A stretch of 63,625 bases of DNA, the filler included. It is 6 parts of 6 records of this genome, joined end to end, with 100 filler letters (N's around TTAATTAATTAA, not from the genome) between each part and the next. Parts side by side here need not be neighbours in the genome. Positions count along the whole stretch, not along the records: positions 50,768 to 58,323 come from DRR723986_10431; 5 more parts are not named here. One strand, written 5' to 3'. The notes under the pieces are model-generated. The model saw only the letters and a program-made list of their open reading frames with translations. It was not told the DNA's origin and did no database searches. Position numbers and translations under genes: made by a program. Shown here in pieces: positions 7,961-58,423 of the stretch. Every line of letters begins with the position of its first letter. The first letter of the stretch is position 1.

Positions 7961-9415
7961 ATGAATCCTCAATTCCGCGGTGGCAACAGCCGTCTGCTGA
8001 CCCGCGCTCTTGAGCAAAAGATGTTGCCCACTGCGGTTCTGGATGCGGCCGGCACGATCGTCTATGTGAATGGACGATTGTGCGAGCTCATGCAGCTCGA
8101 TTCAACATTGTTGGTGGGAAAGGAGTGTAGTTGGAAAGTGCCGCAGGACCGAGAACCTGCCGGTCTGCTACTTTCTGCCCTTGCTCCGCCTGAGAGTGCA
8201 CGCGAAGGAGCGATAGCCGCGCGAAAATTCGCGACGCCTCCAATTTATGGATCCGACATCGATGCACAGCTCTTCATACCGCTCACAGACGATATCGGTG
8301 CGATCTCGTTGACAATCGTCTTGCTCGGTCGCTGGGAACAGATCCAACGCCAGTTGCCGCAGGCCGATTCGACGGCTCGGGCAGCAGACGTGCACGCTGC
8401 CATAGTGCAAATGCGCGCCAAGCATACTTCGCTAGACAACCTAGATGCACTCTATGGTACAAGCCCGCTTTCTCGGCTCGCTATGCAGCGATCTCAACTG
8501 GCAACTCAGGCCGACGTGGATGTTCTGGTCAGCGGGCCTGAACAGATCGGAAAGTCTTCGGTTGTTAATGCGATTTATGGTAGCAGGCTAGCCAAGCAAA
8601 ACATTCGCCCACTGATGGGCACGATTGTAACCATTGACGGCGAAGTGGTCGGTGTTGAACAAGTGCTCGGGCAACTTGAAGTGCTCCTTTCTCGCTTCCG
8701 GCCGGAAGCGGCCAAAGCTGCCAACTCGCTCTATGTTCGTCGAATGGATCTGTTGGATGAATTATCGATGAGCCAAATCATTGGCTTCGTTAACCAACAT
8801 TCGTCGCGGTGCACGTTCTTTGCAAGCGTTACGCCGGAGGGGCGGAAACAGTGTGAATCCAAGGACCCTGCATGGCGCGATGCTTTTGCGCGGATCGGTG
8901 CGATCGAAATTGATATCCCAGCCTTGGCAGAGCGGCGGGAAGATTTGCCATTATTGACCCAACACACACTCGCGAAAATCGCCGATGAACTAGGGCAAAC
9001 GCCCCACCCCATTCGTCCCACCGCGATGGAACTCCTGAGCGCCTATCCATGGCCCCGAAACTTTGCTGAACTCGATGAGGTGCTGCGTTATGCGGCAGGA
9101 CACTGCGTCGGTGATGAGGCAATTGACGTGACCCATCTGCCGATCGGAGTAAAGGCCTTTCCAGGCACAGTTCATCAGCCCGGTGCTTCGGCAGTGGAGG
9201 CGGTGAGCCTGGATCAGATTTTAGAAGACGTCGAACGGGAAGTCATCCGTCGAGCACTCGATGCATCACCGCGCAATCGCGCAGGCGCAGCTCGACTGCT
9301 TGGAATTAGTCGACCGCGCCTACTGCGTCGAATCGAACTATTGGGGCTGTCCACACCGAAGAAGGATCCTTCCGACTCATTGTCGGACGATGGACGCACC
9401 GATAACGTAGAATAG
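7961..9415 (+). CDS. PAS - degenerate AAA+ (sigma54-activator-like) - Fis HTH regulator
   Basis: PAS-like 'AVLDAAGTIVYVN', Walker A-like 'SGPEQIGKS', 'IPALAERREDL', 'AYPWPRNFAEL', Fis HTH 'NRAGAARLLGISRPRLLRRI'; no GAFTGA; start uncertain (7811 or 7961). Confidence 0.8.
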   Translation: MNPQFRGGNSRLLTRALEQKMLPTAVLDAAGTIVYVNGRLCELMQLDSTLLVGKECSWKVPQDREPAGLLLSALAPPESAREGAIAARKFATPPIYGSDIDAQLFIPLTDDIGAISLTIVLLGRWEQIQRQLPQADSTARAADVHAAIVQMRAKHTSLDNLDALYGTSPLSRLAMQRSQLATQADVDVLVSGPEQIGKSSVVNAIYGSRLAKQNIRPLMGTIVTIDGEVVGVEQVLGQLEVLLSRFRPEAAKAANSLYVRRMDLLDELSMSQIIGFVNQHSSRCTFFASVTPEGRKQCESKDPAWRDAFARIGAIEIDIPALAERREDLPLLTQHTLAKIADELGQTPHPIRPTAMELLSAYPWPRNFAELDEVLRYAAGHCVGDEAIDVTHLPIGVKAFPGTVHQPGASAVEAVSLDQILEDVEREVIRRALDASPRNRAGAARLLGISRPRLLRRIELLGLSTPKKDPSDSLSDDGRTDNVE

Positions 9416-18859: not shown

Positions 18860-18959
18860 NNNNNNNNNNNNNNNNNNNNNNNNNNNNNNNNNNNNNNNNN
18901 NNNTTAATTAATTAANNNNNNNNNNNNNNNNNNNNNNNNNNNNNNNNNNNNNNNNNNNN
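18860..18959. other. Artificial contig spacer (N44-TTAATTAATTAA-N44)
   Basis: Identical 100-bp spacer recurs five times and has stop codons in all six frames. Confidence 0.99.
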
Positions 18960-30711: not shown

Positions 30712-30811
30712 NNNNNNNNNNNNNNNNNNNNNNNNNNNNNNNNNNNNNNNNNNNNTTAATTAATTAANNNNNNNNNNNNNNNNNNNNNNNNNNNNNNNNN
30801 NNNNNNNNNNN
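30712..30811. other. Artificial contig spacer
   Basis: N44-TTAATTAATTAA-N44. Confidence 0.99.
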
Positions 30812-38193: not shown

Positions 38194-38293
38194 NNNNNNN
38201 NNNNNNNNNNNNNNNNNNNNNNNNNNNNNNNNNNNNNTTAATTAATTAANNNNNNNNNNNNNNNNNNNNNNNNNNNNNNNNNNNNNNNNNNNN
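38194..38293. other. Artificial contig spacer
   Basis: N44-TTAATTAATTAA-N44. Confidence 0.99.
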
Positions 38294-49846: not shown

Positions 49847-50612
49847 GATAACTGGGTATCCTTTGATTTGAAGAATTCGCCGGCTGAGATCCGCCAAGTG
49901 ACGCTATGCTATCGACAGATACGTGTATCAGCCTGTTCAATCGGCATACGGTGGCCACTTCCGTAAACTGTCCTTGATCCGAGAAGGCCAAATGCATGAC
50001 GGAAAGCGGTAAACATCTGCGCCGCCAAATGTGTCATGACCGGTTTCGCGGGTACACTTGTCCAGGGAGGGCGCAGGCCTAAGCAGCACCCTGACAAGGA
50101 AAAAATACACTTATGTACTTTGAATTTTCATGACAAAATAGGCGGTGAGATTGATTTTTATTTTGTTCCGCGCTTATTTTTCTAATTTTCAGCATACACA
50201 TTTTACAATAATAATCAAACATCAAAATATTTTGAGATTTTATTTCTTCCAATTCTTTTGGAATGACCCGAAACGCCCCCTTCTTATAGGGACGATCCAA
50301 GCCGGGCGACCGTAATCACCTGCCCAAGAACATGCGGCATGTGTCATCGGAAACAAGATCCGATTTCCCGGATCAGGCACATTGGGATTCGGCAAATCAC
50401 CCGCTGACGACCTGGCCTTTAAACGACATTAGCCCCCACGAGAACCTGTCCGGTCCATCGCATGGAAAGCGGGAATCCAAAGCACGAATGTAGCTATTGC
50501 GGAAACGGCAAATGCTGAAATTGCTTCCTGGAAACTGTCCAGACAGACCGACAACGCTTCAGCGCAACACACACAGGTGCAAGCAGATCAAATACTGATG
50601 GTGCGGGAAAAG

Positions 50613-50667
50613 TGGCGCACCGGGGAGGATTCGAACCCCCGACCCCCAGATTCGTAGTCTGGTGCTC
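50613..50667 (-). tRNA. tRNA-Arg(ACG), 5' truncated by the contig end
   Basis: Reverse complement: GAGCACCAGA-CTACGAA-TCTGGGGGTCGGGGGTTCGAATCCTCCCCGGTGCGCCA; ACG anticodon, T-loop and CCA present. Confidence 0.92.
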
Positions 50668-50767
50668 NNNNNNNNNNNNNNNNNNNNNNNNNNNNNNNNN
50701 NNNNNNNNNNNTTAATTAATTAANNNNNNNNNNNNNNNNNNNNNNNNNNNNNNNNNNNNNNNNNNNN
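50668..50767. other. Artificial contig spacer
   Basis: N44-TTAATTAATTAA-N44. Confidence 0.99.
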
Positions 50768-50797
50768 CCCAGGGTTCGAATCCCTGAGCCTCCGCCA
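50768..50797 (+). tRNA. 3' end of a tRNA (probably tRNA-Ser)
   Basis: CAGGG-TTCGAAT-CCCTG T-arm followed by AGCCTCC-G-CCA; G discriminator and CTCC end fit Ser; anticodon not visible. Confidence 0.7.
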
Positions 50798-51126
50798 TCA
50801 TTCCTTTTGTCTACGATGTTATCTGGTCGCCTTGCGCGGCTATTTTTGCGTTTGCTGCTTTGGGGTGCTGCTCCCGGATCACGCAACCTCCTCAAAAGTT
50901 ATCAAAATACACTGTCTCGCCCTGTTGGGACGGACGACCCGAGGCGGGATTGCAGGCTAGTTGATCTGGTCACAACGGATCAGACGTCACTCAAAAGCCA
51001 ACTCATCCAGATACCTCAAGCGATGACCACCAAAGGAAAGTTCACGTTGCCTGCGATGGCTCTGCACCGGTTGTGGCCGCCGAAGATGTCGGCGGAATAT
51101 TGCGATAACACAAAGAAAGACACGAC

Positions 51127-51309
51127 ATGAAACGATATCTCATTCTGGCCGTTCTTGGTCTCAGTGCCTGCGAAACGCCTGCTGAAATCTCCGCACGAGA
51201 GCAGCTTGATGCCGCTTGCCTTGCGGGAAATCTCCAGGCTTGCGCGGCGGTTCAGGAACGCGTGGCGGCAGAGAACCTTGCGCTTGCCACAAGTTCCTTG
51301 GCGTTTTGA
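51127..51309 (+). CDS. Small lipoprotein
   Basis: MKR, hydrophobic core and lipobox LSAC; Cys pair 'ACLAGNLQAC'. Confidence 0.7.
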   Translation: MKRYLILAVLGLSACETPAEISAREQLDAACLAGNLQACAAVQERVAAENLALATSSLAF

Positions 51310-51593
51310 TGAGTTGAGGGGTGGGGGGCGGAGCCATTCTCACCGGCACGGGATGTGTGGCACTCAGGCTTGAAACATCCCGGCGGGCGCAGGAAAAAAC
51401 ATCTTCTTTGCGCCGCACCGCCACCCTTTCAACGCTGCCCCTACCACCCTCAAGCCCGTGCAAACGCTATGCCCACTCCCAGATGCCGAAACGGCAGGCG
51501 TGTATATGGGAGCGATATGTTCGGTTGCCGATCTGCCAAAGCACTGTCATGCACAGGCATCCGATCTGCGCAGGTGCAATAAAGAGTTGTTGA

Positions 51594-52760
51594 ATGACCT
51601 TCGAAAGTATTGATCTGTTTTTTAACATCGTCACGACGGGTATCTGCCTGTTTTGCGCACATCTTTTGATGCTCAGACGCCGCGATCCGGGCGTCTATCT
51701 GCCGCTGGCGCTGTTGTTCCTGTTTCAAGGCATTTCCACCGGCGTGGCGGTTATGACCGAGGCTTATGATCCCACCGGGACGGGGCTTTTGTCCCGCTTC
51801 AATTTGATCACCGGCGCATTGGAAATCGCCTGTCCGTTCCTGTTCTGGGTCTATGTGCGTGCATTGACCACAGAAGGCGAGCCAGAGCGCATTGCGAACC
51901 TGCGAAACCACATTGGCCCGATTGTCTTTGTGACCTTGTGTTTCTGGTCCCTGTTCTTCTTTCCAACCGAAATGTCCGAGGCCCAACTGGAAGAGGATGT
52001 TCCGCAACTGGTGGTGGTTTTGCTGGTCGGTTTGGCGGTGTTGGTCGCAGATATTGCCTTCAAGATCATGATCGGCACCTACATCTATCTCACGGTGCGC
52101 CGATTGATGGCTTATCAAACCCGGCTGAAAGAGGTCTTTGCCAGCACCGAGAACAGGGAATTGACCTGGGTTTGGGTCATTCTTGCAAGTGCCGTTTTCT
52201 ACCTTTGCGTCAACTTTGCCTTCACCGGTCTGATCGGGGTCGGCGCCTTCACCGAAGACACTGTTGGCCCGTGGATCAACACTTTAAGCAGTTTTTCACT
52301 GCTGGCATTGTTCTGGGTGATTGGCGTCTGGGGGTTGCGGCAACGCCCCGGACTGGTCCGCATGGCGGTCGTTGAACAGCAGGTGCCGGACATGCCGCCG
52401 GTGCAGAAATACGAAAAATCCGCCCTTGATAAGGACCGCGCCCAACGTATCGCCCGCAAGATCGAAGCGGCGATGGCCAAGGATTTGCTGTACCGCGATC
52501 CGAACCTGTCGCTGTGGGATCTGGCCAAACATATTGGTGTGACCTCGCACTATGTCTCGCAAACCCTCAACACCCATCTGGGCAAAAGCTTTTTTGAGCT
52601 GGTGAACGGCTGGCGGATCAAGGATGCGATCAAGCAACTGACAACAACGGACGCGACCATTCTTGTGATCACCTATGATGTCGGCTTCAACTCGCGCTCG
52701 GCGTTTTACAAAGCGTTCAAGCGCGAGACCGGAAAAACCCCCACGGACCTGCGCAAATAG
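51594..52760 (+). CDS. Membrane-embedded (about 7 TM) AraC-family regulator
   Basis: TM N-domain; 'KYEKSAL', 'LYRDPNLSL', 'VGFNSRSAFYKAFKRETGKTP'. Confidence 0.9.
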   Translation: MTFESIDLFFNIVTTGICLFCAHLLMLRRRDPGVYLPLALLFLFQGISTGVAVMTEAYDPTGTGLLSRFNLITGALEIACPFLFWVYVRALTTEGEPERIANLRNHIGPIVFVTLCFWSLFFFPTEMSEAQLEEDVPQLVVVLLVGLAVLVADIAFKIMIGTYIYLTVRRLMAYQTRLKEVFASTENRELTWVWVILASAVFYLCVNFAFTGLIGVGAFTEDTVGPWINTLSSFSLLALFWVIGVWGLRQRPGLVRMAVVEQQVPDMPPVQKYEKSALDKDRAQRIARKIEAAMAKDLLYRDPNLSLWDLAKHIGVTSHYVSQTLNTHLGKSFFELVNGWRIKDAIKQLTTTDATILVITYDVGFNSRSAFYKAFKRETGKTPTDLRK

Positions 52761-52822
52761 GCCGGCCACTTTTACAAAGTAGATCGGAGACCAAGCCTGA
52801 GCGTTTCCGCGCGGCGGCCGGT

Positions 52823-53305
52823 TTAGTTCTTTTGGCGATAGCTTTCGTGGCATGCGCCGCAAGATTTGCCAACCGCGCCAATCGCTCCGCGCAATGCATC
52901 GAGACCTGCACCGGCAGATTGCTCCATTGCGATGGCAGCTTCGGCAAGTGCCATCCCCTTTTCGGCGGCGGTGCTGCCGGGTTGCCAGATCGCGGGTAGG
53001 GCGCCAGTAATCTCAGTGCCAAGCGCCTCGTTGTCGGACCCCTGAGGCCACATGCGCGACTGATCCATTTGCGCCAATGCTGCAAGATTGCCAGCCGCCG
53101 CACTGGCCGCCTCCGCGTCATAGGCGACATCCCCCTTGGCCATGCCGCCCAGAACGCTGATGTTGAATGCATAAAGCGTCATCTGTGATTGCCGCGCCTT
53201 GACCGCCGCCAAGGTGGCCTTGTCCGCATGACCATCTCCCATTGCCGTTGTGGCAACAACCGCAGCGGCAACAATTCCGCCAATCGCGCAAATACTCCGT
53301 TTCAT
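52823..53305 (-). CDS. Cytochrome c' / c556 (class II cytochrome c)
   Basis: Signal peptide, 'ARQSQM', 'ALPAIW', C-terminal CGACH; GGAGG RBS. Confidence 0.9.
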   Translation of the reverse strand: MKRSICAIGGIVAAAVVATTAMGDGHADKATLAAVKARQSQMTLYAFNISVLGGMAKGDVAYDAEAASAAAGNLAALAQMDQSRMWPQGSDNEALGTEITGALPAIWQPGSTAAEKGMALAEAAIAMEQSAGAGLDALRGAIGAVGKSCGACHESYRQKN

Positions 53306-53396
53306 CCGCATTCCTCCCAAAAACATATATGCGGATCAGTGTAGCTGTGAGAATAATCAAAGGAAGTCGGAATAATTGCATAGGGTTTGCGAAATT

Positions 53397-54239
53397 ATGC
53401 ACAGCTCAAACTGGGACAATCTGCGGTATGTCCTCTCCGTGATCGAGGCCGGATCGGTCAGCGCCGCCGCCCGCGATCTGGGCGTGAACCATGCAACCGT
53501 GCTCAGACGTGTTGCGGCATTCGAAGCTCAGAACGGCGGTGCCCTTTTTGACCGCAACGCAAACGGCTACCGGGTTTTGCCCGGTAAGGAGGCGCTGGTT
53601 CAGGCGGTGCGGGAGGTTGAAAACGCTGTTCTGAGCGTTGAGCGGCTGATGCTGGGGGCAAATCCGCAGCTGAGCGGCGTGGTGCGCATTTCATCCACCG
53701 ACACCATTTGCCAGTATTTGCTGCCCGACGTTCTACAGAGCCTCAAGGCAGAAGCCCCGCAACTTGAGATCGAATTGCTCAGCAACAACAGTCACCTCAA
53801 TTTTGCCCGGATGGAGGCCGATTTGTTTGTGCGCCCCGCGATGACCCTGCCGGAAGACATGATTGCAACATCCGTGAGACCGCTTGTGTTCAAGGCCTAT
53901 GCCATCTCGCCGGATCAGGACCAATGGTTCAGGTTGCAAGGCCCATTGGCGCGATCCGCACCGGCAAAATGGATGTCAGCCAATGTGGCGGAGGACAGCC
54001 TGAGGTCGGGGTCGGACAGTTTTGTCGTCCTGTCGCGCATGGCGCGATCGGGGGCCGGGATCGCGATACTGCCGTCCTTCGTCGGCGACCGTGTTTCCGG
54101 GCTTGTGCATCTGGTGGACAGAATGCCCGACATCGAAGTGCCCATCTGGGTGGGTTCCCATCAGGACTTAAGGGACATCCCGCGCATCCGCGCTGTCAGA
54201 AATTGTGTGATAGCCCATTTATCAACGCCGCAGATCTGA
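53397..54239 (+). CDS. LysR-family regulator
   Basis: 'NWDNLRYVL...GSVSAAARDLGVNHATVLRRV'; divergent from cytochrome c'. Confidence 0.92.
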   Translation: MHSSNWDNLRYVLSVIEAGSVSAAARDLGVNHATVLRRVAAFEAQNGGALFDRNANGYRVLPGKEALVQAVREVENAVLSVERLMLGANPQLSGVVRISSTDTICQYLLPDVLQSLKAEAPQLEIELLSNNSHLNFARMEADLFVRPAMTLPEDMIATSVRPLVFKAYAISPDQDQWFRLQGPLARSAPAKWMSANVAEDSLRSGSDSFVVLSRMARSGAGIAILPSFVGDRVSGLVHLVDRMPDIEVPIWVGSHQDLRDIPRIRAVRNCVIAHLSTPQI

Positions 54240-54471
54240 GGCCGCCATTCTTTCACAAGCTGACCTTCCGGCCTGCGACCGGCCCGGCTATTTGGCAGAT
54301 CACGAGCAGCTCTAGAAACGACACCTGCGAAATTCGGCTGTGTCCGGTTTGGCCGGACAGGACAATCCGCTGTCCTTCCAACTTGGAAGAGACCGTTCTT
54401 GGGGCGGGGTCCGTTAGACCAATCCGGTCAGGCGCTTCAGCCCGGCGGATTTTCTACACGGAGACCACAAG

Positions 54472-56661
54472 ATGACAATGATTGATCCCAGCCCGTTTCT
54501 GGCCCCCTTGGAGGCGGCCATCGCAAACCTCGCAGGGCCCGCGCCAGCGGCCCTTGTGGGCGTGGCGCGAGGCGGGCTCAGCGCACAGACTGCTGCCGGG
54601 GTGAAGACGGTTGGGCAGGATACGCCTGCCGAGGCCGACGCAAAATTCCACATCGCGTCTCAAACCAAGATGATGACCGCAGCCGTGGTCCTGCAACTGG
54701 CCGCTGAAGGGCGGTTCAGCCTTGATGACAAATTGTCCGATGTGATGGATGTCAGCCCGCTTGCGGGGATCGCAAATATCGAAACGGCGACGATGCATCA
54801 GTTGTTGACGCACAGCTCCGGCATTCCTGACTACGTCAGCGACTTTGTCGGCGAGGCCGGAATTCCGAGCCTTTGGATGCGCTTGCTGATGGACCCGCCC
54901 CAGAAAGTCGGCGTTGACGAAGCAATCGAATTCCTGATCGCCCAGAACGCCCCGGCTGAATTTGAACCGGGGCAAAAAGTCGAATATTCCAACACCGGGT
55001 ACTTACTGTTCCAGCTGGCGATTGAACATGTGACCGGCCAACCTCTTGCCGAAGTGTTCCAGGACCGGATATTCGATCCGCTGGGCATGGATGACACGTC
55101 CTTTCCTGGTATCGGTCGGCCCGACGGGATCATCAGTTCCTACAACACCATGGCGGGCCAGCTGATTGATGTAACGCATCTTCCCATTGATGATGCCGGT
55201 GATGGCGGCGTGGTCTCGACAACCGCCGACATGATCAAATTCATGCAGGCGCTCGTGGTCGATAAAACACTGGTGCCCGAAAGCCAGCTTGACGGGTTGG
55301 CGGACATCTTTGATCCAAGCGGGACCGGACTGGGGGACTTCGTTGGCTACAACGGTGGCGCTTTGGGAACAACCAGTCTCACTTTGGTTCACATGCCCAC
55401 CGGAACCATCATCTCAATCGCCCTGACCCATGCCAATCAGGTCTCAGAGTTGTCGTCGCTGTTTGAGCAGGTCAAGAACAACGTTCTGACCAATGAAGCA
55501 TGGTCCAATTCGGCCATCGGTGATGGCCCGTTAGAGTTTGGGTTCAGCGCGGCGGACCTTGGCATCAGCGAAGCCCCCGGTTCGGATGGGGCGCCACAGG
55601 TTCAGTTGCAAATGGAAGGTGTATCGCTGTTTCTGGATGGGCCTCTTGCGGAATTTGATACAGGCCGTCTGACGTTTTCCGATGGGTCGGTTCTGTTTGT
55701 AGCGGAGCATTCCGCGGCGCAATTTTCGGTGGCGCAGCACGCGGCAGAGGCGATGGATGCGGACAATCAGTTGATCGGCCGAGGCGGGAACAACCTTTTG
55801 ATCGCAGGTCATGGCAATGACGCCCTCAGCGGCGGTGCGGGGGATGACTGGCTGGATGGTGGAAAGGGGCATGACGTGGCCCGCTATGACGCGGATCAGT
55901 CGCAGTTCACACTGACCATTGGCCGCGATGGCACAGTGTTGACCGATCGCACGGGCACGCTGGGGGCAGACAAACTGATCTCGATTGAACAGCTGGATTT
56001 TGCCACTGGCAGTATCGATGTGCAGGCTTTGGAAGGGCTCGGAAATGTGCCTGCCTCTGATCTCTTGGGTATCATCGAGCTCTACACCGCCTATTTCAAC
56101 CGCGCTCCGGACGCGGCGGGCCTGGCTTTTTGGGGGGCGGCCATGGCCAATGGAACAACTCTTGCTGATGCGGCAGCCCTGTTTATGGATCAGGACGAGA
56201 CCAGAGCGGCCTATCCCGAGGGGCTGTCCAATGACGCATTTACGGATGCAGTTTACCAAAACGTGCTTGGCCGGATGCCCGATGCGGAGGGCAAGGCGTT
56301 TTGGGTCGAGGTTCTGAATGATGCCGCCAGCGGCGTGGGGCGCGATCATTTTATTTTGGCGGTTTTGGAGGGCGCAAAAGCAATGGCCCAGCCAGATGCA
56401 TCTGCGGAATTTGCGGCGCAACAAATGATTGATCAGGCCTATCTGGAACACAAGACCGACATCGGCACCTATTTTGCCGCGACCCGAGGCATGTCGGAAC
56501 TGAGCGACGCCAAGGCGGTCATGCAGATTTTTGACGGCTCTCTGTCCAGTCTGAACGCTGCACGCGCGGCAACTGATGCGCTTTATGAGAGCGCGGTTGC
56601 TACAGAAGGCGGCGCGTTTCTGGTTCCCATCGTCGGGATCTTGGATGATCCGTTCCTATGA
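54472..56661 (+). CDS. Serine hydrolase (beta-lactamase/D-peptidase family) fused to RTX Ca-binding repeats and DUF4214
   Basis: SxxK 'SQTK', 'LLTHSSG', YxN 'YSN'; RTX 'GGAGDDWLDGGKGHD'; DUF4214 'ELYTAYFNRAPDAAGLAFW', 'YQNVLGRMPDAEGKAFW'; no signal peptide. Confidence 0.85.
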   Translation: MTMIDPSPFLAPLEAAIANLAGPAPAALVGVARGGLSAQTAAGVKTVGQDTPAEADAKFHIASQTKMMTAAVVLQLAAEGRFSLDDKLSDVMDVSPLAGIANIETATMHQLLTHSSGIPDYVSDFVGEAGIPSLWMRLLMDPPQKVGVDEAIEFLIAQNAPAEFEPGQKVEYSNTGYLLFQLAIEHVTGQPLAEVFQDRIFDPLGMDDTSFPGIGRPDGIISSYNTMAGQLIDVTHLPIDDAGDGGVVSTTADMIKFMQALVVDKTLVPESQLDGLADIFDPSGTGLGDFVGYNGGALGTTSLTLVHMPTGTIISIALTHANQVSELSSLFEQVKNNVLTNEAWSNSAIGDGPLEFGFSAADLGISEAPGSDGAPQVQLQMEGVSLFLDGPLAEFDTGRLTFSDGSVLFVAEHSAAQFSVAQHAAEAMDADNQLIGRGGNNLLIAGHGNDALSGGAGDDWLDGGKGHDVARYDADQSQFTLTIGRDGTVLTDRTGTLGADKLISIEQLDFATGSIDVQALEGLGNVPASDLLGIIELYTAYFNRAPDAAGLAFWGAAMANGTTLADAAALFMDQDETRAAYPEGLSNDAFTDAVYQNVLGRMPDAEGKAFWVEVLNDAASGVGRDHFILAVLEGAKAMAQPDASAEFAAQQMIDQAYLEHKTDIGTYFAATRGMSELSDAKAVMQIFDGSLSSLNAARAATDALYESAVATEGGAFLVPIVGILDDPFL

Positions 56662-56668
56662 TGGGAAA

Positions 56669-56760
56669 CCCCATTCATCCTGCGCGACTGCTTCGCGGCA
56701 GTGTTCCGCAAGGCGTTAAGACCTTTGAGTATTGGCCCTGACGACGCAGGATGAATGGGG
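56669..56760. repeat. 92-bp element bounded by perfect 16-bp inverted repeats (MITE-like or long hairpin)
   Basis: CCCCATTCATCCTGCG (56669-56684) and CGCAGGATGAATGGGG (56745-56760), 60-bp spacer. Confidence 0.8.
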
Positions 56761-56953
56761 CAATGTCTTGGGCGTGCCGGTGTCAATCGTTGAATTCATG
56801 ATCAGGGGGTGGTCGCAAAAGGCTTGTCACTATGGCACCCGGATTTCGGCGGATCTTGCGAGTGGAAACTTTCACAACCCGACTGCCCTGAGTTGTGATA
56901 GGCTGGCGCTATTGAAAGATGTCTATTTCCCAAACCACACAAGGATAGCGCCA

Positions 56954-57703
56954 TTGCCTTACCCAAGTAGAACCGCCGAAAGTGATCTCTATGCATATCT
57001 CGTTTCCAAATATCTCGATGAGATCAGGGCGCCAAGGAATTACATGGTTTGTGTTGTGACGTCCGCCTCTGGTCATGTCTTCGTCGCGACCTCGGGCAGT
57101 GGCGATAGCATGATCGGGACCAAAGCGGTTCCAGATTTTCTGACCAAGGCCAATTGGTGGGGTGATTTGGACGGCGATAAGATGGGTAAGGGCAAGTTGA
57201 AGAAAGCCACAAGATACGCCCGTGATGATGTCGGTTCGGATGATCCCGAGAAAGCCGCGCGGGGGGCCGAAGCGGTAAGCCTGTTGGCGAAACACAAGTT
57301 GGCGACCGAAGCACCGGCCCGCAGTTCACCCGTCGGGTTAGGCGTGGCAAGTGCGGCAATTGCGGACAATTTGACGGCGCCAGATTATAAATACAGCAAG
57401 CCCGGTTCCTCTGTGATCTATGACACAAGCAGAGGCCGCCGGGACTGCGCCGAACCTCGCGCGCTTGAATTGGCGGGAAACGCGGGCGGCAAGATCACCG
57501 GGATGACAACAATCTGGCATGGATCGCCTGATCACAAGAACTACCGTGACTATGTGGACGACAGAAAGTTTGCAGATGTCACGATCAACGCGGCGAAGCC
57601 CTGTGATTTCTGCGTCGCCAACGAAGCAAGGGTAATGGCCGAGGTTGACCGTGCCACGACGCAGCCGACCGGCACTTTGCGGCGGCGCCATTCGATTGGC
57701 TGA
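56954..57703 (+). CDS. Orphan zinc-dependent deaminase-fold protein (CAE...PCxxC)
   Basis: 'YMVCVVT', 'HVFVATSG', 'RDCAEPRAL', 'ITGMTTIW', 'AKPCDFC'; in-frame TTG at 56954 with AAGGA 8 nt upstream (the ORF extends back to 56732). Confidence 0.7.
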   Translation: MPYPSRTAESDLYAYLVSKYLDEIRAPRNYMVCVVTSASGHVFVATSGSGDSMIGTKAVPDFLTKANWWGDLDGDKMGKGKLKKATRYARDDVGSDDPEKAARGAEAVSLLAKHKLATEAPARSSPVGLGVASAAIADNLTAPDYKYSKPGSSVIYDTSRGRRDCAEPRALELAGNAGGKITGMTTIWHGSPDHKNYRDYVDDRKFADVTINAAKPCDFCVANEARVMAEVDRATTQPTGTLRRRHSIG

Positions 57704-57894
57704 GGGAGCCCGACCCTAGATCGCAGTTTGCATTCGTTTGGGTGCGGATGCGGGACATGGAAGCAGGCCGCGGACCGAGCGTCGATCAATTGTGTTGCGA
57801 TTCAACGCTGCGACTTGGGCGCGCTCAGACAGATACTCCACATAACGCAACCGGCTTTGTGAAGCCCGCTTCGCCTGGGGCTTGGCCCGATCCC

Positions 57895-58302
57895 TCAGGC
57901 CATCGGCGCGACGACCTTGCAGCGCGTGATGGCGGCATCAACATTAAAGAACGCCTGTTCAATCGCCTTTTTCCCCAACCCGTTGAGCCGAATTTGAAAG
58001 ACTTTCTCGGTCCCGGCTTTGCATTTGACTGTCACCACACCGTTTTGAAGCGGGCCGTGAAAGCTCACGGTCGCGTCCACCTCTGGCGGGTTGGCAAGGT
58101 TCTGCGCCGTACGCTTGGCCGCGTCCTGGCCTTCGGCATCAAGCAAACCATCCTTGCCCAGTTTTACCTCGGCGTGTCGAAAGGCAGTGACCTTGGCGCT
58201 TCGATCATAAATTGTTGCATGCGGAAACCGTTTCATCGCATGGGTGGGCCAGATTTGAAAAAGCTGACCATCTCCGGTGATTGCAATCGATAGCCCAGCC
58301 AT
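57895..58302 (-). CDS. Orphan hypothetical protein (135 aa)
   Basis: ATG with an AGGAG RBS, globular composition, no recognised family; convergent with the deaminase gene. Confidence 0.65.
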   Translation of the reverse strand: MAGLSIAITGDGQLFQIWPTHAMKRFPHATIYDRSAKVTAFRHAEVKLGKDGLLDAEGQDAAKRTAQNLANPPEVDATVSFHGPLQNGVVTVKCKAGTEKVFQIRLNGLGKKAIEQAFFNVDAAITRCKVVAPMA

Positions 58303-58323: not shown

Positions 58324-58423
58324 NNNNNNNNNNNNNNNNNNNNNNNNNNNNNNNNNNNNNNNNNNNNTTAATTAATTAANNNNNNNNNNNNNNNNNNNNN
58401 NNNNNNNNNNNNNNNNNNNNNNN
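58324..58423. other. Artificial contig spacer
   Basis: N44-TTAATTAATTAA-N44. Confidence 0.99.

What the first reader, a model, noticed from the sequence alone, without database searches (positions are those of the whole stretch)
56954..57703. Stand-alone orphan deaminase-fold protein with CAE...PCxxC zinc motif
Seen in sequence: the elements occur in cytidine-deaminase-superfamily order. A helix is followed by strand YMVCVVT, strand HVFVATSG, a long charged insert, C-A-E (first Zn ligand plus catalytic Glu), strand ITGMTTIW and PCDFC. Established: Cys in place of His in (H/C)xE occurs in some clades, e.g. YwqJ-like polymorphic-toxin deaminases, and nucleic-acid deaminase toxins usually have a delivery N-terminus (Rhs, LXG, CdiA) and a co-oriented immunity gene. 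Neither is visible here, and the size (about 250 aa) and insert do not resemble housekeeping Cdd, TadA or RibD. Inference: a possibly undescribed nucleic-acid or nucleotide deaminase acting as toxin, secreted effector or anti-phage factor, of interest for base editing.
Basis: partly seen in the sequence, partly recalled or inferred. Interest (0 to 1): 0.82.

Follow-up and report, generated by a model that had tools for sequence, protein, structure and literature searches.

The report
Rare stand-alone deaminase-fold gene family
This is a real, conserved gene for a small basic protein that looks like a stripped-down zinc deaminase of a rare, unnamed family, which in some marine bacteria travels alone as an integron gene cassette; what it deaminates is still unknown.

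Summary

The fold is reduced: there is no strand 4 or 5 after the PCxxC helix, and there are inserts before helix 2 and before PCxxC.

No neighbouring gene is conserved. In Saccharophagus, a gammaproteobacterial MAG, Thiodiazotropha and probably Nitrococcus, the gene is a single-ORF integron cassette bounded by GTTAGGC/GCCTAAC sites. That argues against a toxin-immunity pair.

Members are basic (median pI 9.3, against 5.6 for cytidine deaminases). I take this as a hint of a nucleic-acid or nucleotide substrate. A blasticidin-S-deaminase-like small-molecule enzyme remains a serious rival.

Verdict: a new family variant within a known superfamily, function untested.

The parts
56954..57703 (+). 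CDS of the 249-aa deaminase-fold protein (TTG start, TGA stop at 57701-57703)
   Evidence: ORF. Homologs start here. dN/dS is 0.134 against L001. An in-frame 3-nt indel is the only indel in the CDS against L001/L029.
56941..56945 (+). Shine-Dalgarno-like AAGGA, 8 nt before the TTG start
   Evidence: Sequence. Conserved in L001 and L029.
56830..56953 (+). Conserved non-coding leader upstream of the start. It is as conserved as the CDS among three Sulfitobacter-type sequences, while 56700-56830 is diverged with indels.
   Evidence: Three-way alignment. No sigma-70-like promoter was found by the consensus scan. No Rfam match.
56975..57022 (+). Helix 1 (residues 8-23), preceded by the family's N-terminal motif FPxRTxxSD (here PYPSRTAESD)
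   Evidence: AlphaFold2 model. Alignment A2.
57041..57097 (+). Strand 1 (YMVCVVT) and strand 2 (HVFVATSG). S47 is invariant and G48 nearly invariant.
57098..57433 (+). [quoted passage not shown] It contains a short conserved strand (127-130) followed by an L-x-D/A-P element.
   Evidence: Length varies among members from near zero to more than 150 residues. Model helices 79-92 and 98-119 have pLDDT above 90.
57446..57454 (+). C165-A166-E167: predicted first zinc ligand and catalytic glutamate, at the start of helix 2 (166-176)
   Evidence: C and E are invariant in 29 of 29 members. Helix position. hhalign pairs it with the CAE of tetrameric cytidine deaminases.
57494..57517 (+). Strand 3 (ITGMTTIW)
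57599..57625 (+). P216-C217-D-F-C220-V-A-N223-E224: predicted second and third zinc ligands at the start of helix 3, with the family-specific N-E
   Evidence: P216, C217, C220 and N223 are invariant. Helix 218-236. hhalign pairs it with the PCGxC of cytidine deaminases.
57662..57700 (+). Low-confidence C-terminal tail ending in RRRHSIG. Many members end in RR-x-[YF/H]-S-I or [YF]-E-[SA]-P-[FI], and 7 of 29 lack a tail.
   Evidence: pLDDT of the last block is 54.

Best explanation
The gene encodes a stand-alone, basic, zinc-dependent hydrolytic deaminase of the cytidine-deaminase-like (CDA) superfamily. It is the founding member seen here of a rare family that has no name in the libraries searched.

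Mechanism (inferred from the superfamily): Cys165, at the start of helix 2, and Cys217 and Cys220, at the start of helix 3, hold one zinc ion. The zinc activates a water molecule. Glu167 shuttles protons while an exocyclic amino group, most likely of a cytosine ring, is replaced by oxygen.

The fold is a reduced version of the superfamily core. It runs helix 1, strand 1, strand 2, a variable helical insert, helix 2, strand 3, a roughly 27-residue loop, helix 3, and then a short tail. The usual strands 4 and 5 are absent.

The protein needs no partner. In several Gammaproteobacteria the gene is the only ORF of a roughly 0.8-kb integron gene cassette. In Sulfitobacter it sits alone in an ordinary chromosomal neighbourhood.

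My inference on substrate: the whole family is basic and the C-terminal elements that close the pocket in small-molecule deaminases are missing. I therefore take the substrate to be polyanionic (single-stranded DNA, RNA or a nucleotide). I take the role to be an accessory, conflict-type function such as phage defence or mutagenesis.

Status of each step: the gene, its conservation, the motif invariance, the fold resemblance and the cassette structure are shown. Zinc binding, catalysis, substrate and biological role are inferred.

Odds:
- real gene: about 0.97
- deaminase-like fold: about 0.85
- active deaminase: about 0.7
- nucleic-acid or nucleotide substrate: about 0.45 (this last figure is the confidence given below)
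For: Real gene:
- dN/dS is 0.134.
- 31 representatives at E<=1e-3 among 1.84 billion.

Motifs:
- C165, E167, P216, C217, C220 and N223 are invariant in 29 members.

Fold:
- AlphaFold2 models have pLDDT 80.9/pTM 0.71 for the window protein and 85.4/0.80 for the compact homolog P0012.
- hhalign of the family against 26 tetrameric cytidine deaminases aligns CAE with CAE and PCxxC with PCGxC, at P=0.0017 and probability 15%.

Stand-alone:
- All 31 hits are 77-346 aa.
- No conserved neighbour across lineages.

Cassette:
- L003 and L004 share only a 732-bp block at 94.4% identity. It starts at a GTTAGGC box and ends just after a GCCTAAC box.
- The L004/L030 block ends in the next GTTAGGG box, and L004 carries 1.65 kb of extra cassettes after it.
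- attC-like hairpins flank the gene in L030/L031, L003, L004 and L005.

Basic character:
- Median pI is 9.31, with 28 of 29 members at or above 8. For the 26 cytidine-deaminase segments the median is 5.57 and none reaches 8.

Architecture:
[quoted passage not shown] 2011 list for the YwqJ toxin clade. They report C-terminal truncation only in toxin clades (PMC3239186, passages).
- YwqJ is reported to be an ssDNA cytidine deaminase (PMC13648612, abstract and section 5).
- Protein-language-model neighbours with a family name are YwqJ-deaminase clusters. The scores are only 0.76-0.84, so this is a lead only.

Neighbourhood:
- In 4 of 6 independent long loci the neighbours are TIR, PIN, PIN_12, AbiJ_NTD4, NERD, reverse transcriptase, serine recombinase, transposase or a Tse2-like toxin.
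Against: - No sequence model of any deaminase family recognises the protein. None of 29 members passes a Pfam threshold, and the single weak hit is PF14421 at E=0.015.
- PF14421 and PF00383 genome searches do not hit the loci.
- The PDB profile search is empty.
- Foldseek finds nothing at E<=0.001.
- I could not read coordinates, so the zinc-site geometry is unverified.
- The best structural matches, the three-cysteine site and the only profile-profile signal all point to the small-molecule CDA/BSD clade, not to nucleic-acid deaminases.
- A partner-less, constitutively active DNA deaminase would be mutagenic to its host, and a one-ORF cassette has no room for an inhibitor.
- In Sulfitobacter and a Paracoccaceae MAG the neighbours are ordinary genes.
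- No PADLOC match and no viral homolog.
- hhalign against two YwqJ-family sequences found nothing.
- Basic pI is only a weak proxy for nucleic-acid binding.
Confidence: 0.45

Rival explanations
1. The protein is a small-molecule deaminase related to blasticidin S deaminase and cytidine deaminase. It would deaminate a free cytosine nucleoside, a nucleoside antibiotic or a similar metabolite. That would give resistance or salvage capacity, which is why it can travel as a single-gene integron cassette without harming the host.
For: - The three-cysteine CxE...PCxxC site is the commonest state of the CDD/CDA/BSD group (PMC3239186 passage).
- The only profile-profile signal is with tetrameric cytidine deaminases (P=0.0017).
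- A one-ORF cassette with no partner is the classical layout of resistance cassettes (cassette structure; the comparison with resistance cassettes is from general knowledge).
- There is no immunity gene.
Against: - The C-terminal hairpin that the CDA/BSD group uses is absent. The BSD alignment stops at residue 100, and the model has no strand after helix 3.
- TIGR01354 and PF00383 models do not hit the family.
- The family is uniformly basic, unlike the 26 cytidine deaminases compared.
- BSD and CDA are among the smallest members of the superfamily, so they may top the list simply because only the minimal core is shared.
Confidence: 0.3
2. The protein is a secreted or injected toxin or effector (polymorphic-toxin type, YwqJ-like). 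Its delivery signal would be the conserved arginine-rich C-terminal tail, and its immunity protein would be encoded elsewhere.
For: - Its architecture resembles the YwqJ clade as described in PMC3239186.
- A Tse2-like ADP-ribosyltransferase toxin gene lies next to the Hahella homolog.
- 22 of 29 members carry a conserved C-terminal tail.
Against: - No Rhs, LXG, PAAR, CdiA or other delivery domain is present.
- No longer fused form was found.
- No conserved adjacent gene in any lineage.
- The cassette holds one ORF.
- 7 of 29 members lack the tail.
- There is no signal peptide-like N-terminus; the N-terminus is a conserved structured motif with pLDDT 94.
Confidence: 0.08
3. The protein is not an enzyme. 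It would be a zinc-binding structural or regulatory protein that keeps the metal site of a deaminase ancestor, or the AlphaFold models are drawn to the deaminase fold by the motifs alone.
For: - The sheet is reduced to three long strands.
- No sequence family recognises the protein.
Against: - The catalytic Glu167 is invariant together with the three Cys in 29 of 29 members, and P168 after it is nearly invariant. A purely structural zinc site would not need the glutamate.
- Two independent models give the same fold at pLDDT 81-85.
- 27 of the 50 best chains for the compact homolog are deaminases.
Confidence: 0.1

Closest known systems
Blasticidin S deaminase and homotetrameric cytidine deaminase (CDD/CDA group, C-terminal-hairpin division of the deaminase superfamily)
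   Same: - Same order of helix 1, strand 1, strand 2, helix 2 (C-A-E), strand 3 and helix 3 (P-C-x-x-C).
- A three-cysteine zinc site plus glutamate.
- A loop between strand 3 and PCxxC.
   Different: - No strands 4 and 5.
- A 0 to more than 150-residue insert before helix 2.
- PCxxCxxNE in place of PCGxCRQ.
- No match to PF00383 or TIGR01354.
- Basic rather than acidic.
- Oligomeric state is unknown.
YwqJ-clade toxin deaminases (PF14431). B. subtilis YwqJ is reported to be an ssDNA cytidine deaminase delivered by T7SSb.
   Same: As described in PMC3239186, the clade has:
[quoted passage not shown]
- an insert between strand 3 and the CxxC motif;
- some members truncated after helix 3;
- either Cys or His in the x-E motif.

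The nearest named protein-language-model clusters are of this family (weak).
   Different: - No PF14431 match in any of 29 members.
- hhalign against two proteobacterial YwqJ-family domains found nothing.
- Those two domains carry G-L-H-A-E and A-C-x-x-C.
- No LXG, Rhs or other delivery domain and no immunity gene.
- The conserved glycine is four residues before the Cys, not two.
Interbacterial DNA deaminase toxins SsdA (9c63) and DddA (8e5d, 6u08)
   Same: - Deaminase core.
   Different: - Those are C-terminal domains of large secreted proteins with cognate immunity proteins.
- This protein is free-standing and partner-less.
AvcD and other anti-phage dCTP/dCMP deaminases
   Same: They are deaminases used as cytoplasmic defence effectors. 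AvcD is held in check without a protein partner, by a small RNA (abstract of PMC10511110 in the listing).
   Different: - Those belong to the dCMP_cyt_deam_1 family, which does not match this protein.
- No PADLOC match.
- The gammaproteobacterial cassettes leave no room for an RNA antitoxin apart from the attC site itself.
Integron gene cassettes of unknown function
   Same: - One promoter-less ORF of about 0.65 kb.
- It is preceded by a GTTAGGC core site and a short leader with a ribosome-binding site.
- It is followed by an imperfect hairpin that begins with GCCTAAC and ends with GTTAGGN.
- It is shuffled among unrelated cassettes.
   Different: - The window's own copy (Sulfitobacter) and the Paracoccaceae copy show no such sites above the background of my scan.
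- An adjacent integrase was not shown for any locus.

Membership tests
CDA-like nucleotide/nucleic-acid deaminase superfamily | [H/C/D]-x-E at the start of helix 2 and (P)C-x-x-C at the start of helix 3 | tested here: met
   C165-A-E167 and P216-C217-x-x-C220 are invariant in 29 of 29 members. Model helices begin at 166 and 218.
CDA-like nucleotide/nucleic-acid deaminase superfamily | Three-layer alpha/beta/alpha fold with a five-stranded sheet (order 2-1-3-4-5) | tested here: inconclusive
   [not shown]
CDA-like nucleotide/nucleic-acid deaminase superfamily | One zinc ion bound by the three ligands; Glu-dependent hydrolytic deamination | not testable with these tools
   Needs metal analysis and enzyme assays. 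The co-fold with zinc returned no contacts.
CDA-like nucleotide/nucleic-acid deaminase superfamily | Recognition by a curated sequence model of the clan | tested here: not met
   None of 29 members passes any Pfam model. NCBIfam gives none. PF00383 and PF14421 genome searches miss the loci.
CDD/CDA/BSD group | C-terminal beta hairpin (strands 4 and 5 antiparallel) and match to PF00383/TIGR01354 | tested here: not met
   No strand after helix 3. The BSD alignment ends at residue 100. No HMM match. hhalign reaches only P=0.0017, probability 15%.
YwqJ-deaminase clade (PF14431) | Match to PF14431; G-x-[CH]-x-E in helix 2; conserved His in the insert | tested here: not met
   No PF14431 hit at E<=1 in 29 members. 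The motif here is G-x-R-x-C-A-E. hhalign against 2 family members is negative, but that profile is very thin.
YwqJ-deaminase clade (PF14431) | [quoted passage not shown] | tested here: met
   compared with the table text of PMC3239186.
LmjF36.5940-like deaminases (PF14421) | Match to PF14421 above 27.1 bits | tested here: not met
   One of 29 members hits at E=0.015. The search of 5 genomes holding a homolog gives no hit at the loci.
Polymorphic toxin systems | N-terminal trafficking or repeat domains and an adjacent co-oriented immunity gene | tested here: not met
   All hits are 77-346 aa. No longer forms were found, which is weak evidence. No conserved neighbour. The cassette has one ORF.
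Integron gene cassette (gammaproteobacterial copies only) | ORF bounded by G|TTRRRY core sites, with a 3' attC hairpin beginning with RYYYAAC | tested here: met
   - L004: GTTAGGC at 7967-7973, GCCTAAC at 8671-8677, GTTAGGG at 8781-8787.
- The homology blocks with L003 and L030 break at these boxes.
- Hairpins of 54-117 nt were found.
- The sites were found with my own scan, which gives 0-4 hits per shuffled locus. No curated attC model was available.
Integron gene cassette (gammaproteobacterial copies only) | Array attached to an integron integrase (intI) | tested here: inconclusive
   - TIGR02249 passes its cut-off in the Nitrococcus and Saccharophagus genomes, but 266 kb away or on another contig.
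- A partial intI with a stop lies about 122 kb from the gene on the same MAG contig.
- The arrays may be integrase-less attC clusters.
Integron gene cassette (window copy) | Flanking attC/core sites | tested here: not met
   No flanking site in the window, L001, L029 or L006 beyond the shuffled background. The gene has its own conserved leader.
Known anti-phage defence systems (PADLOC 2.0) | Match to a PADLOC model | tested here: not met
   No match for the window protein, P0004 or P0012.

The most novel reading that the evidence does not exclude
This would be a self-sufficient, partner-less nucleic-acid cytosine deaminase built on the smallest deaminase core yet seen (three strands, no strand 4 or 5). 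It spreads as a single-ORF integron cassette and acts as a one-gene anti-phage or mutator device. Its variable helical insert would serve as the built-in switch that keeps it harmless until triggered. It would also offer a new compact scaffold for base editing.
Probability: 0.2. Interest if true: 0.8.

Novelty: new variant of a known kind. Interest (0 to 1): 0.55.

Why it matters
New deaminase clades have repeatedly become tools (DddA, SsdA-type and Sdd enzymes for base editing) and have revealed new conflict mechanisms.

This family is invisible to every sequence model searched here. It keeps an intact catalytic signature on a truncated core, and it moves as a lone integron cassette. It is therefore a concrete, cheap-to-test candidate among the many integron cassettes of unknown function.

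If it acts on DNA or RNA, it raises the question of how a partner-less mutagenic enzyme is tolerated. If it acts on nucleoside antibiotics, it would be a new resistance-type cassette from marine bacteria.

If it proves inactive, the finding reduces to a rare orphan with a relic metal site.

Tried and rejected
- The longer 323-aa ORF from 56732 was rejected. The upstream part has a 1-nt indel against L001/L029. P0009, which matched it, is a frame-shifted ORF call in a relative.
- The co-oriented downstream ORF 57742-58293 was considered as an immunity gene and rejected. It is antisense to the real 135-aa gene (5 against 17 amino-acid changes for the same 19 nt differences). In L001/L029 a 3.1-kb insertion splits it.
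- Foldseek against the PDB gave nothing at E<=0.001 for either model.
- PDB sequence and profile searches found nothing relevant.
- PF14421, the one weak Pfam lead, was not confirmed on 5 genomes.
- hhalign against YwqJ used only the two sequences found in 401 genomes. It gave no signal, and the profile is too thin to exclude kinship.
- Homodimer co-fold with zinc: no verdict, score 0.00. This says nothing either way.
- The search for fused longer forms found none, but the tool calls that weak.
- The profile search at near lengths added no new members.
- The viral contig scan found none among 28 stretches.
It was repeated with 10 closer sequences.
- No whole genome is held for the window.
- RNA evidence is thin. 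Single short contigs in two metatranscriptome runs and one run of guessed type cover 56862-57095, 56603-56773 and 57507-57705. The tool warns that DNA carry-over is possible, so transcription is not shown.
- An attC covariance model was not built, because the MAFFT alignment of 11 sites was too poor in the centre.
- The R-body ADP deaminase preprint concerns a TIM-barrel enzyme and is irrelevant.
- Earlier findings of this scan returned nothing.
- Literature searches turned up no description of this family. They were keyword searches, not exhaustive, and supplements were not seen.
Full report
**1. What is there**

The ORF listing gives a 323-aa ORF at 56732-57703 (+). The real gene is shorter. 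All distant homologs begin at the motif that here reads PYPSRT. The codon in front of it is TTG at 56954 (GTG in the two nearest relatives), with AAGGA 8 nt upstream. The stretch 56732-56953 carries a 1-nt indel and much lower identity against L001 and L029.

Against Sulfitobacter mediterraneus DSM 12244 (L001), the CDS shows 44.3 synonymous and 22.7 non-synonymous differences over 248 codons. That gives dN/dS 0.134, and the only indel is in frame. The gene is real.

The window is a chain of contigs joined by N44-TTAATTAATTAA-N44 linkers. The gene's contig is 50768-58323, so the ribosomal protein genes after 58424 are not its neighbours.

**2. The family**

Pfam, NCBIfam, PADLOC and the PDB sequences give nothing for the protein.

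A full phmmer pass over 1.84 billion representatives finds 31 proteins at E<=1e-3: 16 at 1e-10 or better and 3 at 1e-30 or better. All are 77-346 aa. Ten clusters looked up hold 1 to 4 members each.

In an alignment of 29 members that are 23-94% identical to the query, S47, C165, E167, G190, P216, C217, C220 and N223 are invariant. The shared motifs are FPxRTxxSD, FMVxVVT, VAxSG, C[AS]EP[KR]AL, GMTTIW and PCxxCxxNE.

None of the 29 passes a Pfam model. The only deaminase-type hint is one member against PF14421 at E=0.015. That hint was not borne out on 5 genomes that hold a homolog. PF00383 finds 18 housekeeping deaminase genes in those genomes but never this gene.

**3. Fold**

AlphaFold2 with the family alignment gives pLDDT 80.9 and pTM 0.71 for the window protein. 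The elements are helix 8-23, strands 30-37 and 42-46, a helical insert, helix 166-176, strand 181-189 and helix 218-236. The compact homolog P0012 (201 aa) gives pLDDT 85.4 and pTM 0.80 with the same order. In both models the Cys-x-Glu and the PCxxC sit at helix starts, as in deaminases.

Foldseek finds nothing at E<=0.001, though its weak top rows are Cdd and blasticidin S deaminase.

VIA-align over 48,161 chains gives the following.

|---|---|---|---|---|
| Window protein | 3oj6_A, blasticidin S deaminase | 6.4 | rmsd 3.0, 95 residues, 20% identity | 29 |
| Window protein | 9c63, T6S cytidine-deaminase toxin | 5.2 | | 29 |
| Window protein | Cytidine deaminases | 4.7-4.9 | | 29 |
| P0012 | 3oj6_A | 7.3 | | 49 |
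| P0012 | 3b8f | 5.9 | | 49 |
| P0012 | 9c63 | 5.5 | | 49 |

An hhalign of the family against 26 tetrameric cytidine deaminases (taken) pairs CAE with CAE and PCxxC with PCGxC at P=0.0017, but with a probability of only 15%.

I could not read coordinates, so the zinc geometry itself is unverified.

**4. How the fold departs from the norm**

There is no strand after helix 3, so strands 4 and 5 are missing. [quoted passage not shown] There is also a loop of about 27 residues between strand 3 and PCxxC.

Iyer et al. 2011 (PMC3239186; passages read) state three relevant things:
- CxE is the commonest state in the C-terminal-hairpin division (CDD/CDA, BSD).
- C-terminal degradation is seen in the BURPS668_1122, YwqJ, OTT_1508 and XOO_2897 toxin clades.

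The family thus looks like the CDA/BSD group in its metal site and its best structural matches. It looks like the YwqJ toxin clade in architecture.

Sequence tests for YwqJ membership fail. There is no PF14431 hit. hhalign against the two YwqJ-family domains found in 401 genomes is negative. The language-model neighbours named YwqJ-deaminase score only 0.76-0.84.

B. subtilis YwqJ is reported to be an ssDNA cytidine deaminase toxin of the type VIIb system (PMC13648612; abstract and section 5 read).

**5. Surroundings**

On its contig the gene follows four genes:
- an AraC-type regulator;
- a cytochrome c' gene;
- a LysR regulator;
- a 729-aa protein with a beta-lactamase-fold domain, RTX repeats and DUF4214.

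It converges on a conserved orphan 135-aa gene at 57895-58302 (-). L001 and L029 are syntenic over 50784-57865 but carry a 3.1-kb insertion (LysR regulator, methyltransferase) right after the gene.

An all-against-all comparison of ORFs within 5 kb in ten loci finds no neighbour shared between lineages.

| Locus | Organism | Neighbours |
|---|---|---|
| L002 | Nitrococcus | Reverse transcriptase, TIR protein, large serine recombinase |
| L003 | Gammaproteobacterial MAG | PIN, transposase, PIN_12, AbiJ_NTD4 |
| L004 | Saccharophagus | REase-like protein, NERD nuclease, rve integrase |
| L007 | Hahella | Tse2-like ADP-ribosyltransferase toxin |
| L006 | Paracoccaceae MAG | Ordinary genes: Kdo transferase, luciferase-like oxidoreductase, Mur-ligase-type enzyme |

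**6. The gene is an integron cassette in Gammaproteobacteria**

L003 and L004 encode 91% identical proteins. Within 8 kb on each side, however, they share only one 732-bp block (7964-8695 in both, 94.4% identity) and a 73-bp repeat. The block starts at a GTTAGGC box (7967-7973). That box is followed by a 24-nt leader with AAAGGAG and the ATG. The block ends 18 nt past a GCCTAAC box (8671-8677) that follows the stop codon.

L004 and the metagenome contig L030 share 7964-8786, which ends inside the next GTTAGGG box (8781-8787). L004 then holds 1.65 kb of extra ORFs before homology resumes.

My scan for RYYYAAC...GTTRRRY hairpins finds sites on both sides of the gene in L030/L031 (111 and 117 nt, -55 and -52 kcal/mol), L003 and L004. 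It finds a site upstream of the gene in L005 (Thiodiazotropha). In Nitrococcus it finds sites around the TIR cassette, plus a degenerate copy of the same site directly upstream of the gene. Aligned, 11 such sites give the consensus GCCTAACAA...GGCGTTAGGC.

Three caveats apply:
- The scan is home-made and gives 0-4 hits per shuffled locus.
- No curated attC model was available.
- An adjacent integrase was not shown. TIGR02249 passes its cut-off in the Nitrococcus and Saccharophagus genomes, but 266 kb away or on another contig. A partial copy with a stop lies about 122 kb from the gene on the MAG contig.

The Sulfitobacter and Paracoccaceae copies show no such sites.

**7. What it most likely does**

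Shown:
- a conserved gene;
- an intact Cys-Glu...Cys-Cys signature on a deaminase-like core;
- no partner gene;
- cassette mobility.

Inferred: zinc-dependent hydrolytic deamination, with Glu167 as the proton shuttle.

On the substrate, two readings compete.

For a polyanionic substrate (ssDNA, RNA or a nucleotide):
- The family is uniformly basic: median pI 9.31, with 28 of 29 at or above 8. For 26 cytidine deaminase segments the median is 5.57 and none reaches 8.
- The elements that close the pocket in small-molecule enzymes are missing.
- The architecture recalls toxin clades.
- The cassette neighbours are often defence-type genes.

For a small-molecule substrate:
- The best structural and profile matches are BSD and CDA.
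- The metal site has three cysteines.
- A lone cassette with no inhibitor suits a harmless resistance-type enzyme far better than a mutagenic one.

A secreted toxin with immunity elsewhere gets about 0.08, and a non-catalytic protein or wrong fold about 0.10.

The one-ORF cassette, the absence of longer fused forms and the absence of any conserved neighbour make a classical toxin-immunity system unlikely.

**8. Novelty**

No library or paper search here names this family (keyword searches; supplements not seen). It lies inside a well-known superfamily, so it is not a new kind.

The combination is a new variant:
- an unrecognised family;
- a core truncated after helix 3;
- a variable insert;
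- stand-alone form;
- carriage on integron cassettes.

Its interest rests on an untested activity.

Noticed in passing
window 18860-18959, 30712-30811, 38194-38293, 50668-50767, 58324-58423: The window is a concatenation of contigs joined by N44-TTAATTAATTAA-N44 spacers. Genes on either side of a spacer are not physically linked. The apparent low-GC stretch at 50000-50750 partly reflects this.
   Followed up: yes
window 54472-56661 (+): A 729-aa protein combines a serine beta-lactamase/PBP-fold domain (PF00144, E 1.3e-45), RTX calcium-binding repeats and two DUF4214 stretches. It looks like a secreted hydrolase. It lies 293 nt upstream of the deaminase-fold gene and is syntenic in S. mediterraneus.
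   Followed up: partly
window 57895-58302 (-): A conserved orphan 135-aa gene converges on the target. It differs from L001 by 19 nt but only 5 amino acids, against 17 in the overlapping plus-strand frame. It has no Pfam, NCBIfam or PADLOC match.
   Followed up: partly
window 57865/57882; L001 8908-11992: S. mediterraneus DSM 12244 and metagenome contig L029 carry a 3.1-kb insertion (LysR regulator and a SAM methyltransferase) exactly between the target gene and the 135-aa gene. This is an indel hot spot.
   Followed up: partly
window 56830-56953: The non-coding leader of the gene is as conserved as the CDS among three Sulfitobacter-type sequences, while the 130 nt before it are diverged. It could be a promoter or regulatory RNA region. 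There is no Rfam match and no sigma-70 consensus hit.
   Followed up: no
L004 8787-10435 versus L030 1308-1314: Saccharophagus sp. K07 has about 1.65 kb of extra small co-oriented ORFs (191, 174 and 110 aa, no Pfam match for the two scanned) inserted between the deaminase cassette and a NERD-nuclease cassette. A near-identical metagenome contig lacks them. This is cassette shuffling caught in two relatives.
   Followed up: partly
L002 6135-7353: In Nitrococcus mobilis a TIR-domain gene (PF13676, E 2.4e-28; PADLOC PDC-S66/ThsB-like) is bracketed by two strong attC-like hairpins (135 nt at -74.8 kcal/mol and 83 nt at -54.7 kcal/mol). It appears to be a TIR defence-type integron cassette, two cassettes upstream of the deaminase homolog.
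   Followed up: partly
L007 8435-8968: Next to the Hahella homolog lies a 177-aa ORF matching the Tse2 ADP-ribosyltransferase toxin family (PF18648, E 1.6e-22). It is followed by an unassigned 195-aa ORF that could be its immunity gene.
   Followed up: no
[not shown]
   Followed up: no
P0009 (96 aa): A database protein that matches the window's upstream extension at 67% identity reads through into a shifted frame of the deaminase gene's start. It appears to be an ORF-calling artefact in a relative, not evidence for an N-terminal extension.
   Followed up: yes
family C-termini (alignment A2): 22 of 29 members end in a short tail of two related types: RR-x-[HY]-S-[IM], or [YF]-[ED]-[SAV]-P-[FI]-like. 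The other seven stop right after helix 3. The tail is low-confidence in the models and its role is unknown. It could be a lid over the active site, a recognition tag, or a phospho-site-like motif.
   Followed up: no
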